From the NCBI RefSeq assembly GCF_009914755.1, contig NC_060927.1: 64,000 bases of DNA. One strand, written 5' to 3'. A program made the position numbers and the translations under genes. Position 1 is the first letter of the stretch, and every line of letters starts with the position of its first letter. The stretch is from the human T2T-CHM13v2.0 reference genome, Homo sapiens. The notes beneath the pieces are model-generated. The model had not been told where the DNA came from. It searched no databases and was given only the letters and a program-made list of their open reading frames with translations. Positions 22,223 to 35,600 of the stretch are shown here, one piece after another.

Positions 22223-25076
22223 GGGGATATCACCACCGATCCCACAGAGATACAAACTATCATCAGAGAATATTATAAACACCTTTAGGCAAATAAACTA
22301 GAAAATCTAGAAGAAATGGATAAATTCCTGGACACATACACCCTCCCAAGACTAAACCAGGAAGAAGTTGAATCCCTGAATAGACCAATAACAGGCTCTG
22401 AAATTGAGGCAATAAAGAGCCTACCAATGAACAAAAAGTCTAGGACCAGACGGATTCACAGCCAAATTCTACCAGAGGTACAAAGAGGAGCTGGTACCAT
22501 TCCTTCTGAAACTATTCCAATCAATAGAAAAAGAGGGAATCCTCCCTAACTCATTTTATGAGGCCAGCATCATCCTGATACCAAAGTGTGGCAGAGACAC
22601 AACAAAAAAAGAGAATTTTAGACCAATATCCCTGATGAACATTGATGCAAAAATCCTCAATAAAATACTGGCAAACCGAATCCAGCAGCACATCAAAAAG
22701 CTTATCCACCATGATCAAGTGGGCTTCATCCCTAGGATGCAAGGCTGGTTCAACATATGAAAATCAATAAACATAATCCAGCATATAAACAGAACCAACG
22801 ACGAAAACCATATGATTATCTCAATAGATGCAGAAAGGCCTTTGACAAAATTCAACAACCCTTCGTGCTAAAAACTCTCAATAAATTAGGTATTCATAGG
22901 ATGTATCTCAAAATAATAAGAGCTATCTATGACAAACCCACAGCCAATATTATACTGAATGGACAAAAACTGGAAGCATTCCCTGTGAAAACTGGCACAA
23001 GACAGGGATGCCCTCTCTCACCACTCCTAATCAACATAGTGTTGGAAGTTCTGGCCAGGGTAATCAGGCAGGAGAAGGAAATAAAGGGTATTCAATTAGG
23101 AAAAGAGGAAGTCAAATTATCCCTGTTTGCAGATGACATGATTGTATATCTAGAAAACCCTATCGTCTCAGCCCAAAATCTCCTTAAGCTGATAGGCAAC
23201 TTCAGCAAAGTCTCAGGACGCAAAATCAATGTGCAAAAATCACAAGCATTCTTATACACCAATAACAGACAAACAGTCAAATCATGAGTGAACTCCCATT
23301 CACAATTGCTTCAAAGAGAATAAAATACCTAGGAATCCAACTTACAAGGAATGTGAAGGACCTCTTCAAGGAGAATTACAAACCACTGCTCAACAAAATA
23401 AAAGAGGACGCAAATAAATGGAGGAACATTCCATGCTCATGGATAGGAAGAATCAATATTGTGAAAATGGCCATACTGCCCAAGGTAATTTATAGATTCA
23501 ATGTCATCCCCATCAAGCTACTAATGACTTTCTTCACAGAATTGGAAAAAACTACTTTAAAGTTCATATGGAACCAAGAAAGAGCCCGCATTGCCAAGTC
23601 CATCCTAAGCCAAAAGAACAAAGCTGGAGGCATCACACTACCTGACTTCAAACTATACTGCAAGGCTACAGTAACCAAAATAGGATGGTACTGGTACCAA
23701 AACAGAGATGTAGACCAATGGAACAGAACAGAGCCTTCAGAAATAATACCACACATCTACAACCATCTGATCTTTGACAAACCTGACAGAAACAAGCAAT
23801 GAGGAAAGGATTCCCTATTTAATAAATGGTGCTGGGAAAAGTGGCTAGCCATATGTAAAAGCTGAAACTGGATCCCTTCCTTACACCTTATACAAAAATT
23901 AATTCAAGATGGATTAAAGGTTTAAATGTCAGTCCTAAAACCATAAAAACCCTAGAAGAAAACCTAGGCAATACCATTCAGGACATAGGCATGGGCAAGG
24001 ACTTCATGTCTAAAACACCAAAAGCAATGGCAACAAAAGCCAGAATTGACAAATGGAATCTAATTAAACTAAAGAGCTTCTGCACAGCAAAAGAAACTAC
24101 CATCACGGTGAATGGGAGAAACCTACAGAATGGGAGAAAATTTTTGCAATCTACTCATCTGACAAAGGGCTAATATCCAGAATCGACGAAGAACTTAAAC
24201 AAATTTACAAGAAAAAATCAAACAACCTCATCAAAAAGTGGGCAAAGGATATGAACAGACACTTCTCAAAAGAAGACGTTTATGCAGCCAAAGGACACAT
24301 GGAAAAATGCTCATCATCACTGGCCATCAGAGAAATGCAAATCACAACCACAATGAGACACCATCTCACACCAGTTAGAATGGCAGTCATTAAAAAGTCA
24401 GGAAACAGCAGGTGCTGGAGAGGATGTGGAGCAATAGGAACACTTTTACACTGTTGGTGGGACTGTAAACTAGTTCAACTGCTGTGGAAGACAGTGTGGC
24501 AATTCCTCAAGGATCTAGAAGTAGAAATACTATTTGATCCAGCCATCCCATTACTGGGTATATACCGAAAGGATTATAAATCATGCTACTCTAAAGACAC
24601 ATGCACACATATGTTTGTTGCGGCACTATTCACGATAGCAAAGACTTGGAACTAACCCAAATGTCCATCAGTGATAAACTGGATGAAGAAAATGTGTTAC
24701 ATATACAACATGGAATACTATGCAGACATAAAAAATGATGAGTTCATGTCCTTTGTAGGGACATGGATGAAGCTGGAAACCATCATTCTCAGCAAACTCT
24801 CGCAAGGACAGTAAACCAAACACCGCATGTTCTCACTCATAGGTGGGAATTGAACAATGAGAACACTTGGACACAGGGTAGGGAACACTACACACCAGGG
24901 CCTGTCGTGGGGTGGGAGAAGGGGGGAAGGATAGCATTAGGAGATATACCTAATATAAATGACGAGTTAATGGGTGCAGCACACCAACATGGCATATGTA
25001 TACATATGTAACAAACCTGCACGTTGTGCACATGTACCCTAGAACTTAAAGTATAATTGAAAAAAAAGAAAAAAAT
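22223..25076 (+). mobile_element. 5'-truncated L1PA (L1PA4/5-like), disrupted ORF2 RT to 3'UTR
   Basis: ORF2 fragments (FADDM; CWRGC...HCWWDC), L1 3'UTR and A tail. TSD AAATTCCCTTTCAT at 22209-22222 and 25077-25090. Confidence 0.97.
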
Positions 25077-25409
25077 AAATTCCCTTTCATTTATTTTTTG
25101 CCAATAGTTTCTATATGTGCCTATAAAGAAAAAAAATCCATTTTTTCCTACTTAAAATGGGAAGAGAAGAATAATTCTGTTTTGAGGCTTTCATTTACAT
25201 TATAAAAACCAGGAAGACAAAGCAATTATTCAGAGGAGAGCCATTTTATAAAGCTACGAATAAACAATAATGAAAGGATGACATTAAAGTTCATTAAGAT
25301 CTATAGAAGGAAGTTAAGCTACATTTTTCAAATACGTTGTGTAGCAAAGGAGAAGGAAAACGTCCAAACTCACAACTCACAAAATACAGAAGTGAAATTT
25401 TTGATTTGG

Positions 25410-32697: not shown

Positions 32698-35600
32698 TTT
32701 TTTTTTATTATACTTTAAGTTTTAGGGTACATGTGCACAACATGCAGGTTAGTTACATATGTATACACGTGCCATGTTGGTGTGCTGCACCCACTGACTT
32801 CCACAACGGTTGAACTAGTTTATATTCCCACTAACAGTGTAAAAGTGTTCCTATTTCTCCACATCCTCTCCAGCACCTATTGTTTCCTGACTTTTAATGA
32901 TCGTCATTCTAACTGGTGTGAGATGGTATCTCACTGTGGTTTTGATTTGCATTTCTCTGCTGGCCAGTGATGATGAGCATTTTTTCATGTGTCTTTTGGC
33001 TGAAGTGTCTGTTCATATCCTTTGCCCACTTTTTGATGGGGTTGTTTGGTTTTTTCTTGTAAATTTGTTTGAGTTCATTGTAGATTCTGGATATTAGCCC
33101 TTTGTCAGATGAGTAGATTGCAAAAATTTTCTCCCATTCTGTAGGTTGCCTGTTCACTCTGATGGTAGTTTCTTTTGCTGTGCAGAAGCTCTTTAGTTTA
33201 ATTAGATCCCATTTGTCAATTTTGGCTTTTGTTGCCATTGCTTTTGGTGTTTTAGACATGAAGTCCTTGCCCATGCTTATGTCCTGAATGGTATTGCCTA
33301 GGTTTTCTTCTAGGGTTTTCATGGTTTTATGTCTAACATTTAAGTCTTTAATCCATCTTGAATTAATTTTTGTATACAGTGTAAGGAAGGGATCCAGTTT
33401 CAGCTTTTACATATGGCTAGCCAGTTTTCCCAGCACCATTTATTAAATAGGGAATCGTTTCCCCATTGCTTGTTTTTGTCAGGTTTGTCAAAGATCATAT
33501 GGTTGTAGATATGCAGCATTATTTCTGAGGGCTCTGTTCTGTTCCGTTAGTCTATATCTCCGTTTTGGTACCAGTACCATGCTGTTTTGGTTACCGTAGC
33601 CTTGGAGTATAGTTTGAAGTCAGGTAGCGTGATGCCTCCAGCTTTGTTCTTTTGGCTTAGGATTGACTTGGCAATGCGGGCTCTTCTTTGGTTCCATATG
33701 AACTTTAAAGTAGTTTTCTCCAATTCTGTGAAGAAAGTCATTGGTAGCTTGATGGGGATGACATTGAATCTATAAATTACCTTGGGCAGTATGGCCATTT
33801 TCACAATATTGATTCTTCCTACCCATGAGCATGGAATGTTCTTCCATTTGTTTGTATCCTCTTTTATTTCGTTGAGCAGTGGTTTGTAGTTTTCCTTGAA
33901 GAGGTCCTTCATCTCCCGTGTAAGTTGGATTCCTAGGTATTTTATTCTCTTTGAAGCAATTGTGAATGGGAGTTCACTCATGATTTGACTCTCTGTCTGT
34001 TATTGGTGTATAAGAATGCTTGTGATTTTTGCACATTGATTTTGCGTCCTGAGACTTTGCTGAAGTTGCCTATCAGCTTAAGGAGATTTTGGGCTGAGAC
34101 GATGGGGTTTTCTAGATATACAATCATGTCATCTGCAAACAGGGATAATTTGACTTCCTCTTTTCCTAATTGAATACCCTTTATTTCCTTCTCCTGCCTG
34201 ATTACCCTGGCCAGAACTTCCAACACTATGTTGATTAGGAGTGGTGAGAGAGGGGATCCCTGTCTTGTGCCAGTTTTCACAGGGAATGCTTCCAGTTTTT
34301 GTCCATTCAGTATAATATTGGCTGTGGGTTTGTCATAGATAGCTCTTATTATTTTGAGATACATCCTATGAATACCTAATTTATTGAGAGTTTTTAGCAT
34401 GAAGGGTTGTTGAATTTTGTCAAAGGCCTTTCTGCATCTATTGAGATAATCATATGGTTTTCGTCGTTGGTTCTGTTTATATGCTGGATTATGTTTATTG
34501 ATTTTCATATGTTGAACCAGCCTTGCATCCTAGGGATGAAGCCCACTTGATCATGGTGGATAAGCTTTTTGATGTGCTGCTGGATTCGGTTTGCCAGTAT
34601 TTTATTGAGGATTTTTGCATCAATGTTCATCAGGGATATTGGTCTAAAATTCTCTTTTTTTGTTGTTTCTCTGCCACACTTTGGTATCAGGATGATGCTG
34701 GCCTCATAAAATGAGTTAGGGAGGATTCCCTCTTTTTCTATTGATTGGAATAGTTTCAGAAGGAATGGTACCAGCTCCTCCTTGTACCTCTGGTAGAATT
34801 CGGCTGTGAATCCATCTGGTCCTGGACTTTTTTTGGTTGGTAAGCTATTAATTATTGCCTCAATTTCAGAGCCTGTTATTGGTCTATTCAGGGATTCAAC
34901 TTCTTCCTGATTTAGTCTTGGGAGGGTGTATGTGTCCAGGAATTTATCCATTTCTTCTAGATTTTCTAGTTTATTTGTGTAGAGGTGTTTATAGTATTCT
35001 CTGATGGTAGTTTGTATTTCTGTGGGATCACTGGTTATACCCCCTTTTAACATTTTTTATTGTTTCTATTTGATTCTTCTCTCTTTTCTTCTTTATTAGT
35101 CTTGCTAGCAGTCTATCAATTTTGTTGATCTTTTTAAAAGACCAGCTCCTGGCTTCATTGATTTTTTGAAGGGTTTTTTGTGTCTCTCTTTCCTTCAGTT
35201 CTGCTCTGATCTTAGTTATTTCTTGCCTTCTGCTAGCTTTTGAATGTGTTTGCTCTTGCTTCTCTAGTTCTTTTAATTGTGATGTTAGGGTGTCAATTTT
35301 AGATCTTTCCTGCTTTCTCTTGTGGGCATTCAGTGCTATAAATTTCCCTCTACACACTGCTTTGAATGTGTCCCAGAGATTCTGGTATGTTGTGTCTTTG
35401 TTCTCGTTTGTTTCAAAGAACATCTTTACTTCTGCCTTCATTTCGTTATGTACCCAGTAGTCATTCAGGAGCAGGTTGTTCAGTTTCCATGTAGTTGTTT
35501 GGTTTTGAGTGAGTTTCTTAATCCTGAGTTCTAGTTTGATTGCACTGTCGTCTGAGAGACAGTTTGTTATAATTTCTGTTCTTTTACATTTGCTGAGGAG

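What the first reader, a model, noticed from the sequence alone, without database searches (positions are those of the whole stretch)
22485..34780. Inverted L1 pair homogenised by non-allelic gene conversion (862 bp at 99.3% identity, shared disabling mutations)
Seen: 22485-23346(+) and 34780-33919(-) align without gaps with only 6 mismatches by my manual count, whereas the next ~100 bp has about 12. The copies are separate insertions, with different TSDs and different 3'UTR variants. Within the tract both carry the same non-consensus lesions: an in-frame stop (ATA TGA), a 1-bp frameshift (CAGAAAGGCC), and substitutions giving PKCG, IHRMY, FPVK, LLINIV, ARVIR, LIGNF and SGRK. Two further shared lesions lie outside the tract: FNVIP, and a 1-bp deletion ATATGTAAAAGCTG at ~23855/33405. 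Inference: mutations that kill ORF2 are unlikely to come from a shared active parent given L1 cis-preference, so repeated, patchy post-insertion conversion between the arms is the likely cause. The host, ZCWPW2, is a PRDM9-mark reader gene, which is a curiosity rather than evidence.
Basis: partly seen in the sequence, partly recalled or inferred. Interest (0 to 1): 0.85.

Follow-up and report, generated by a model that had tools for sequence, protein, structure and literature searches.

The report
Gene conversion between two inverted L1s
Two separately inserted, oppositely oriented L1 retrotransposon copies in an intron of ZCWPW2 share an 862-base stretch that one copy recently copied from the other; this is a clean but ordinary case of non-allelic gene conversion.

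Summary
A (+, 22223-25076) and B (-, 38354-32697) align over about 2.27 kb. Positions 22485-23346 versus 34780-33919 show 6 mismatches and no gaps. The flanks differ at 101 events in 1412 bp (Poisson P=1.4e-19; 0 of 20000 permutations).

Gene conversion is well supported. A has a perfect 14-bp target-site duplication, and no homology extends beyond the L1 bodies. In trees with up to 88 other genomic copies, A and B are sisters only in the tract (support 1.0). Fourteen variants shared in the tract occur in 0-1 of 83-88 other copies.

The mutation load indicates that B, the full-length and less decayed copy, was the donor. The tract carries 16 private events. A B-like load predicts 17.1 and an A-like load predicts 34.2 (likelihood ratio about 400). 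The four later substitutions suggest the event happened a few million years ago.

- The stop codon and the LIGNF change recur in other copies.
- The "3'UTR variant" is a 468-bp deletion in B.
- The arms carry different 4-bp deletions at an indel hotspot inside the tract.
- The shared 1-bp deletion at 23857 lies outside the tract, is rare genome-wide (4 copies), and points to at least one further exchange.

This is a known kind of event. Interest is low to moderate.

The parts
22209..22222 (+). 5' target-site duplication of copy A (AAATTCCCTTTCAT)
   Evidence: The exact 14-mer occurs only at 22209 and 25077 in the window.
22223..25076 (+). Copy A: a 5'-truncated L1 running from mid-ORF2 to the 3'UTR and A-rich tail. 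It is the more decayed copy, with a private load of 56 events in 1412 bp of flank.
   Evidence: The translation of 22835-23275 matches human L1 ORF2p residues 603-749 with E=1.2e-83.
25077..25090 (+). 3' target-site duplication of copy A
22485..23346 (+). Converted tract in A, the inferred acceptor. It lies in the reverse-transcriptase-coding part of ORF2. Shared private variants span 22587-23220.
33919..34780 (-). The same tract in B, the inferred donor
32697..38354 (-). Copy B: an L1 reaching its 5'UTR start (GGGGTGAAGCAAAGATGGCC at 38354) and ending in a short A tail at 32697. It has a 468-bp internal deletion. It is the less decayed copy, with 28 private events in 1412 bp of flank.
32792..32794 (-). 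Junction of B's 468-bp internal deletion (A's 24497-24964 is absent) with 2-3 bp of microhomology
22758..22760 (+). Shared in-frame TGA (B: 34507-34505). It sits at a recurrently mutated position.
   Evidence: T at 22758 occurs in 26 of 84 other copies and A at 22760 in 11 of 84.
22834..22836 (+). Shared 1-bp deletion in an A-run (B: about 34431); the first frameshift
   Evidence: The 34-mer spanning it occurs 22 times genome-wide, including A and B.
23266..23277 (+). Indel hotspot and second frameshift. A and B each lack 4 bp but different ones, which gives mismatches 23272 and 23274 (B: 33999-33988).
23857..23858 (+). Shared 1-bp deletion outside the tract (B: about 33408); the third frameshift
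   Evidence: The 31-mer occurs 4 times genome-wide: A, B and two copies only about 90% identical to A.
25091..32696 (.). 7.6-kb spacer between the 3' ends of the two convergent arms, within ZCWPW2 intron 1
   Evidence: The intron assignment comes from the gene table supplied with the finding.

Best explanation
A and B are two independent L1 (L1PA-type) insertions in opposite orientation, 7.6 kb apart, in intron 1 of ZCWPW2. A is the older, 5'-truncated copy. B inserted later and reaches its 5' end.

Long after both had decayed, a DNA break in A was repaired using B on the same chromosome or sister chromatid as template (non-allelic gene conversion, without crossover). This overwrote about 630-860 bp of A's reverse-transcriptase-coding region with B's sequence.

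A therefore now carries B's private mutations there, including a stop codon and a 1-bp frameshift, and A's own mutations in that stretch were erased.

The event is recent, on the order of 1-6 million years on conventional rates.

A few private variants shared outside the tract, above all the 1-bp deletion at 23857, suggest at least one additional shorter or older exchange.

Shown: the identity jump, the independent origin of A, the tree conflict, the privacy of the shared variants, and the B-like mutation load. Inferred: the break-repair mechanism, the direction, the date and the absence of crossover.
For: (1) The tract has 6 differences where 61.7 are expected (P=1.4e-19; 0 of 20000 permutations).

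(2) Independent origin. A has a perfect 14-bp target-site duplication. BLAST of the two neighbourhoods finds no homology beyond the L1 bodies except an Alu pair at 77.6% and an old L1-like stretch at 74.9%.

(3) Trees of A and B with up to 88 other genomic copies (79-86 sequences per partition tree). In the tract A and B are sisters (support 1.0, stem 0.024, tips 0.0027 and 0.0028). In the 3' flank and the 5' flank they are not sisters, with A-B distances of 0.10-0.11.

(4) With A's 3' flank as query, B ranks about 33rd of 40 scored hits. With B's flank as query, A is not among the 40. With the tract as query, B is at 99% and the next best copy is at 97%.

(5) 13 substitutions and one 1-bp deletion shared in the tract are in 0-1 of 83-88 other copies.

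(6) Direction. Private events in the flanks number 56 for A and 28 for B per 1412 bp. The tract holds 14 shared private events plus 2 further private events in each copy, so 16 per copy. The expectation is 17.1 if B-like and 34.2 if A-like (P=0.0004 for A-like; likelihood ratio about 405). Random copies show no regional rate difference (tract/flank ratio 0.97, 49 copies). The best-hit profile of the tract (top score 1418 bits) resembles B's flank (1421) rather than A's flank (1342).

(7) A's intact target-site duplication means there is no net inversion of the spacer.
Against: - No other species or human haplotype could be examined, so the pre-conversion state is inferred and not observed.
- The assembly could not be checked against reads.
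- The two arms carry different 4-bp deletions at 23272-23274 inside the tract. This needs either patchy repair of the heteroduplex, two abutting events, or a tract that ends near 23271.
- The reference copies are a small and partly biased sample: 28 chosen by the search tool from 8629 candidates, and 60 chosen for an exact 32-mer that favours younger subfamilies. 'Private' therefore means rare in 88 copies plus a few genome-wide word counts. It does not mean absent from all L1s.
- L1 trees are star-like, so non-sisterhood in the flanks rests mainly on long terminal branches.
- The dating uses only 4 substitutions and recalled mutation rates.
Confidence: 0.9

Rival explanations
1. Common descent. 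A is a retrocopy of B, or both come from one already broken source element, and the shared lesions were inherited rather than exchanged.
For: Three frame-disrupting lesions and a stop are shared. One of them (23857) lies outside the high-identity tract and is rare genome-wide (4 copies). A 1-bp frameshift variant elsewhere in ORF2 is present in 399 copies genome-wide, so broken variants can be widespread among L1 copies.
Against: - Descent would give roughly even divergence, but identity falls from 99.3% to about 93% at sharp edges.
- A and B are not sisters in either flank.
- At least 31 other copies are closer to A's flank than B is.
- A carries twice B's private load in the flanks.
- Even under this model the tract still needs a later homogenising event.
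Confidence: 0.03
2. Assembly artefact. The tract in one arm was filled or polished from reads of the other arm.
For: Nothing from the calls made here supports this. It is listed because reads could not be inspected.
Against: The arms still differ at 6 positions in the tract, including different indel alleles at 23272-23274. A simple copy-over would not leave those differences. The arms are about 10.6 kb apart between tract starts, with unique flanks. The statement that long reads would span this distance is from general knowledge and was not tested.
Confidence: 0.03
3. Conversion in the opposite direction (A to B), or both arms converted from a third L1.
For: With only two sequences, direction cannot be read from identity alone. 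The load argument assumes Poisson mutation and a fair reference sample.
Against: An A-like load predicts 34.2 private events in the tract and 16 are seen (P=0.0004). The four mismatches just 5' of the tract (22441, 22451, 22464, 22484) are all A-private, and such variants then nearly vanish inside the tract (2 in 862 bp). The closest third copy among the 40 of 8629 candidates that were scored is only 97% identical to the tract and shares none of the 13 private substitutions.
Confidence: 0.06
4. Chance or selective conservation of this stretch in both copies.
For: The stretch encodes the most conserved part of ORF2, the reverse transcriptase.
Against: Both copies have a stop and frameshifts there, so no protein is conserved. 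Constraint cannot create shared derived variants. Random copies show no lower private divergence in this region (ratio 0.97).
Confidence: 0.01

Closest known systems
Non-allelic gene conversion between neighbouring Alu elements
   Same: Dispersed retroelement copies exchange sequence after insertion. The rate rises with proximity (under 10 kb) and identity, private (non-diagnostic) mutations are shared, and age estimates are distorted. Seen in passages of PMC6598467, which cites Aleshin and Zhi 2010, and of PMC8230782.
   Different: Here the partners are L1s, the tract (about 630-860 bp) is longer than a whole Alu, and the arms are inverted and only about 93% identical outside the tract.
L1-L1 gene conversion (mouse L1; break repair from endogenous LINEs in cell culture; intrachromosomal conversion in a human L1)
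   Same: The element family and the mechanism are the same. [quoted passage not shown] 2000) and infer an intrachromosomal conversion at one human locus. Burton et al. [quoted passage not shown]
   Different: Those are experimental tracts or single anecdotal loci. This case offers both partners, both edges, an inferred direction and a rough date within one window.
Arm-to-arm gene conversion in palindromes and inverted segmental duplications
   Same: Inverted repeats on one chromosome are kept similar by intrachromosomal conversion. This is recalled (human Y palindromes). PMC3790853 and PMC3924818 on interlocus conversion were seen as search listings only.
   Different: The arms here did not arise by duplication. 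Homology stops at the L1 ends, and only about a third of the shared length is homogenised.
Inversions and other rearrangements by recombination between inverted L1s
   Same: The substrate is the same: nearby inverted L1 pairs. Human-chimpanzee L1-mediated inversions are recalled. PMC9675761 was seen as a listing only.
   Different: A's target-site duplication is intact, so there is no net crossover or inversion here. Only the non-crossover outcome is seen.
Twin-priming L1 inversion
   Same: It produces L1 sequence in both orientations at one locus.
   Different: Twin priming gives adjacent, non-overlapping parts of one element inside one pair of target-site duplications. Here the arms cover the same part of L1, lie 7.6 kb apart, and A has its own duplication.

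Membership tests
Non-allelic (interlocus) gene conversion tract | The partners are paralogous copies of independent origin | tested here: met
   A has its own perfect 14-bp target-site duplication. No homology extends beyond the L1 bodies. A and B are not sisters in the flanks. No duplication was found for B.
Non-allelic (interlocus) gene conversion tract | A contiguous segment has identity significantly above its flanks | tested here: met
   6 differences against 61.7 expected, P=1.4e-19; 0 of 20000 permutations.
Non-allelic (interlocus) gene conversion tract | Derived variants are shared by the two partners within the segment and are absent from other family members | tested here: met
   14 shared events occur in 0-1 of 83-88 other copies. 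The stop and LIGNF are not private (26 of 84, 11 of 84 and 13 of 87).
Non-allelic (interlocus) gene conversion tract | The tree of the segment conflicts with the tree of the flanks | tested here: met
   sisters with support 1.0 in the tract and not sisters in the 5' or 3' flank.
Non-allelic (interlocus) gene conversion tract | The unconverted state is seen at the orthologous locus of an outgroup species or another haplotype | not testable with these tools
LINE-1 (L1) retrotransposon copy | ORF2 reverse-transcriptase homology | tested here: met
   A's 22835-23275 translation matches human L1 ORF2p (8sxt_A) residues 603-749 with E=1.2e-83 and 9 of 147 residues different.
LINE-1 (L1) retrotransposon copy | A-rich 3' tail and target-site duplication | tested here: met
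   Met for A. For B a short A tail is present but no duplication of 7 bp or more was found.
Only relative decay was measured: A about 4.0% and B about 2.0% private.
Inverted segmental duplication / palindrome | Homology continues into non-repeat flanks of both arms | tested here: not met
   outside the L1 bodies there is only an Alu pair (77.6%) and an old L1-like match (74.9%).
Twin-priming L1 inversion | Adjacent inverted and direct parts of one element lie within one pair of target-site duplications | tested here: not met
   The arms overlap in L1 coordinates, are 7.6 kb apart, and A has its own duplication.

The most novel reading that the evidence does not exclude
The pair is an actively exchanging inverted repeat. 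The main conversion is specific to the human lineage and possibly still polymorphic. Smaller exchanges have recurred. The same pairing may occasionally resolve as a crossover, which would give a polymorphic inversion of about 7.6-10 kb inside ZCWPW2 intron 1. If so, this would be a natural, datable system for measuring conversion between repeats that are 93% identical and lack a PRDM9 motif.
Probability: 0.15. Interest if true: 0.4.

Novelty: new member of a known kind. Interest (0 to 1): 0.25.

Why it matters
Non-allelic conversion between dispersed repeats is accepted, but it has mostly been documented for Alu elements and segmental duplications. Well-resolved L1-L1 cases with both partners, both edges, a direction and a date are few in the papers I could search.

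This locus shows three things.
- An old, truncated L1 can acquire the mutations of a younger neighbour. That makes divergence-based ages and subfamily calls unreliable for part of an element.
- Repeats only about 93% identical and about 10 kb apart still exchange sequence.
- Shared inactivating mutations between neighbouring L1s need not mean a defective source element.

No effect on the host gene is expected. Two long inverted L1s in one intron could pair in the pre-mRNA, but that is speculation.

Tried and rejected
- Viral contig collection searched for L1 relatives: 1 locus at 67% identity, of no use. The window's own genome turned out to be searchable instead.
- MAFFT --auto on 90 sequences timed out. 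It was rerun with a faster setting.
- The first reference sample (28 copies) proved biased. The tool's first look favours copies with the same net indels as the query: 28 of 30 aligned sequences, the query pair included, had a net -1 in one 40-bp region by four different routes, and 4-bp deletions were enriched at the hotspot. I therefore added 60 copies taken as the first 60 rows of an exact-word list. That set leans towards younger subfamilies.
Only the hit table was used.
- Test of whether the 5 flank sites with shared private variants sit in unusually long mismatch-free intervals: not significant (3 of 5 in intervals of 45 bp or more, P=0.19).
- GC-biased conversion, counted by eye and not tested statistically: among the 13 shared private substitutions, 4 are weak-to-strong, 6 strong-to-weak and 3 neutral. 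No signal.
- PRDM9 13-mer motif (recalled): none in either arm and one in the spacer at 31110.
- Target-site duplication of B: none of 7 bp or more.
- Reciprocal exchange by two successive inversions was rejected by reasoning. It would swap the segments, not homogenise them.
- Slips corrected: a wrong reading frame and the term format of paper tools.
- Paper searches for this locus or for a human genome-wide L1-L1 conversion survey found none. Subscription-journal papers are not covered.

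
Full report
WHAT IS THERE

The window holds two L1 copies in opposite orientation inside intron 1 of ZCWPW2 (gene table supplied with the finding).

Copy A (+ strand, 22223-25076) is 5'-truncated. 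It runs from mid-ORF2 to an A-rich tail and is bracketed by a perfect 14-bp target-site duplication at 22209 and 25077.

Copy B (- strand, 38354 down to 32697) reaches what looks like the start of an L1 5'UTR and ends in a short A tail. For B no target-site duplication of 7 bp or more was found.

The arms are convergent. Their 3' ends face each other across 7.6 kb.

The translation of A 22835-23275 matches residues 603-749 of human L1 ORF2p with E=1.2e-83 and 9 of 147 residues different. The stretch in question therefore encodes the core of the reverse transcriptase.

CHECK OF THE OBSERVATION

BLAST and a global alignment give one collinear alignment, 22223-24496 versus 35044-32792, at 94.4% identity.

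Within it, 22485-23346 versus 34780-33919 is ungapped with exactly 6 mismatches.

The flanks show 101 difference events in 1412 bp, so 61.7 were expected in the tract (Poisson P=1.4e-19). In 20000 permutations no 862-bp window had fewer than 18.

The listed shared lesions are all present. Three details need correcting.
- The arms share three frame-disrupting lesions, not two: a missing A in the run at 22834-22836, a 4-bp deletion at about 23272, and a missing G at 23857/23858.
- At the 4-bp site the arms carry different deletions of equal length. That alone produces mismatches 23272 and 23274. The site is an indel hotspot: 10 of 28 copies in a biased sample and 2 of the 60 random copies have indels there.
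- The "different 3'UTR variants" are a 468-bp internal deletion in B with 2-3 bp of microhomology. A's 24497-24964 is the usual structure in other copies.

REFERENCE COPIES

The window's own genome could be searched. Using the tract as query returned 40 scored hits out of 8629 candidates. B is at 99%, and the best other copy (L004) is at 97%.

I aligned 28 of these hits. That sample turned out to be biased towards copies with the same net indels as the query.

I therefore added 60 further copies, taken as the first 60 rows of a genome-wide exact-word list. That set leans towards younger subfamilies.

No rows were dropped from the alignments. Trees used sequences covering at least 80% of each partition (79-86 sequences each).

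ARE THE SHARED LESIONS A FAMILY TRAIT?

Mostly not. Thirteen substitutions shared by A and B in the tract occur in 0-1 of 83-88 other copies. They are at 22587, 22588, 22734, 22803, 22895, 22898, 22951, 22985, 23030, 23061, 23119, 23219 and 23220. They include the changes read as PKCG, IHRMY, FPVK, LLINIV, ARVIR and SGRK.

The 34-mer across the first frameshift occurs 22 times in the genome, including A and B. Four of the others lie in two coordinate clusters on contig 1 and may be duplicates of one another. This lesion is rare but recurrent, as expected for a homopolymer.

Two items are not private.
- The stop sits at a recurrently mutated position, with T at 22758 in 26 of 84 copies and A at 22760 in 11 of 84.
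- The LIGNF change (23195) is in 13 of 87 copies.

The 31-mer across the deletion at 23857 occurs 4 times genome-wide: A, B and two copies that are only about 90% identical to A and truncated elsewhere.

TREE CONFLICT

In the tract A and B are sisters with support 1.0, a stem of 0.024 and tips of 0.0027 and 0.0028.

In the 3' flank and the 5' flank they are not sisters. The terminal branches are long (A 0.054-0.056, B 0.024-0.033) and the A-B distance is 0.10-0.11.

Independently, with A's flank as query B ranks about 33rd of 40 scored hits. With B's flank as query A is not among the 40.

Homology between the two neighbourhoods stops at the L1 ends. Common descent, inverted segmental duplication and twin priming are therefore rejected. 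What remains is a post-insertion, non-reciprocal exchange.

DIRECTION AND DATE

After collapsing gaps into events, the flanks hold 56 A-private and 28 B-private events per 1412 bp.

The tract holds 14 shared private events plus 2 A-only and 2 B-only, which makes 16 per copy.

A B-like load predicts 17.1 and an A-like load predicts 34.2. The chance of 16 or fewer under the A-like load is 0.0004, and the likelihood ratio is about 405 in favour of B as donor.

Random copies show no regional difference in private divergence (ratio 0.97 over 49 copies).

The four mismatches just 5' of the tract are all A-private. A-private variants then nearly disappear for 862 bp.

The best-hit scores of the tract (1418 bits) resemble B's flank (1421) and not A's flank (1342).

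So B's decayed sequence overwrote A's.

The four ordinary substitutions since the event give 0.46% pairwise divergence (95% interval 0.13-1.19%). This corresponds to roughly 2 million years at 1e-9 per site per year, with a range of 0.6-6, and twice that at half the rate (the rates are recalled).

The tract length lies between 634 bp (22587-23220, the span of shared private variants) and 862 bp.

Whether the tract runs across the hotspot to 23346 is uncertain. No A-private variant occurs in 23275-23346, where about 2.9 were expected, and a rare shared variant lies at 23277. The differing hotspot alleles fit patchy heteroduplex repair or two events.

MORE THAN ONE EXCHANGE?

Five private events are shared outside the tract: 22375, 23394, 23504, the 23857 deletion and 24481.

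Chance parallelism predicts 0.7-1.3 (P=0.0006-0.01). The deletion in particular is too rare genome-wide to have arisen twice.

The sites are not significantly concentrated in long mismatch-free intervals (P=0.19). Extra short or older exchanges are therefore likely but not demonstrated.

COMPARISON WITH WHAT IS KNOWN

Conversion between dispersed repeats is established.
- Passages of PMC6598467 and PMC8230782 describe it for Alu. They report higher rates within 10 kb, sharing of non-diagnostic mutations, and distortion of age estimates.
- Passages of PMC1920257 describe break repair by L1-mediated conversion in cell culture and infer an intrachromosomal L1 conversion at one human locus.
- A 1991 paper on L1 gene conversion in mouse was seen only as a reference-list entry.

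My searches found no description of this locus and no human genome-wide L1-L1 survey. Subscription journals are not covered.

This is a new, unusually well-resolved instance of a known process. The link to ZCWPW2's function is coincidental as far as the evidence goes, and neither arm holds the PRDM9 13-mer.

LIMITS

No other species or haplotype could be compared and no reads could be inspected. No repeat library was available for naming subfamilies. The reference sample is 88 of many thousands of copies.

Noticed in passing
Loci L005-L020 and L025 (not the window's copies, which carry the three-C form at about 22858-22860): A 1-bp shorter form of a C-run in ORF2 shifts the reading frame. Its exact 31-mer context occurs in 399 places genome-wide, against 3263 for the frame-preserving 32-mer. 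That is far too many for independent decay at one site. The 16 carriers in my alignment do not form a clade (largest pure group 2-3), but L1 trees are star-like. It could reflect a propagated broken lineage or a hotspot of error during copying.
   Followed up: partly
window 23266-23277 and the same place in other copies: An indel hotspot in a short repeat-rich stretch. Several different 2-, 4- and 6-bp deletions are seen among copies: 10 of 28 in the biased sample and 2 of the 60 random copies.
   Followed up: partly
window 32451-32696 and 38355-38480: B is flanked on both sides by what look like fragments of much older L1 elements. A 24422-24630 matches 32653-32451 at 74.9%, and the rest was judged by eye. 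The two flanking fragments do not appear contiguous in the old element.
   Followed up: no
window 22414-22432: A alone has a 3-bp deletion and a 1-bp insertion just 5' of the tract. Together they shift its reading frame relative to B.
   Followed up: no
The genome search DNA mode (method note): The tool's first look seems to favour candidates on the same alignment diagonal as the query, so returned samples are enriched for the query's own indel pattern. Such samples overstate how common the query's indels are.
   Followed up: partly
ZCWPW2 gene as a whole: One nanopore study of 24 genomes names ZCWPW2 as the gene with the most transposable-element insertion calls: 13 unique insertions and 67 occurrences. 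I saw this one passage of PMC10638045. Whether any call lies near this L1 pair is unknown.
   Followed up: no
window 31110 (- strand) and 25818-25887: The spacer between the arms holds a single match to the degenerate 13-mer recombination-hotspot motif and a (TA)n microsatellite of about 35 units.
   Followed up: no
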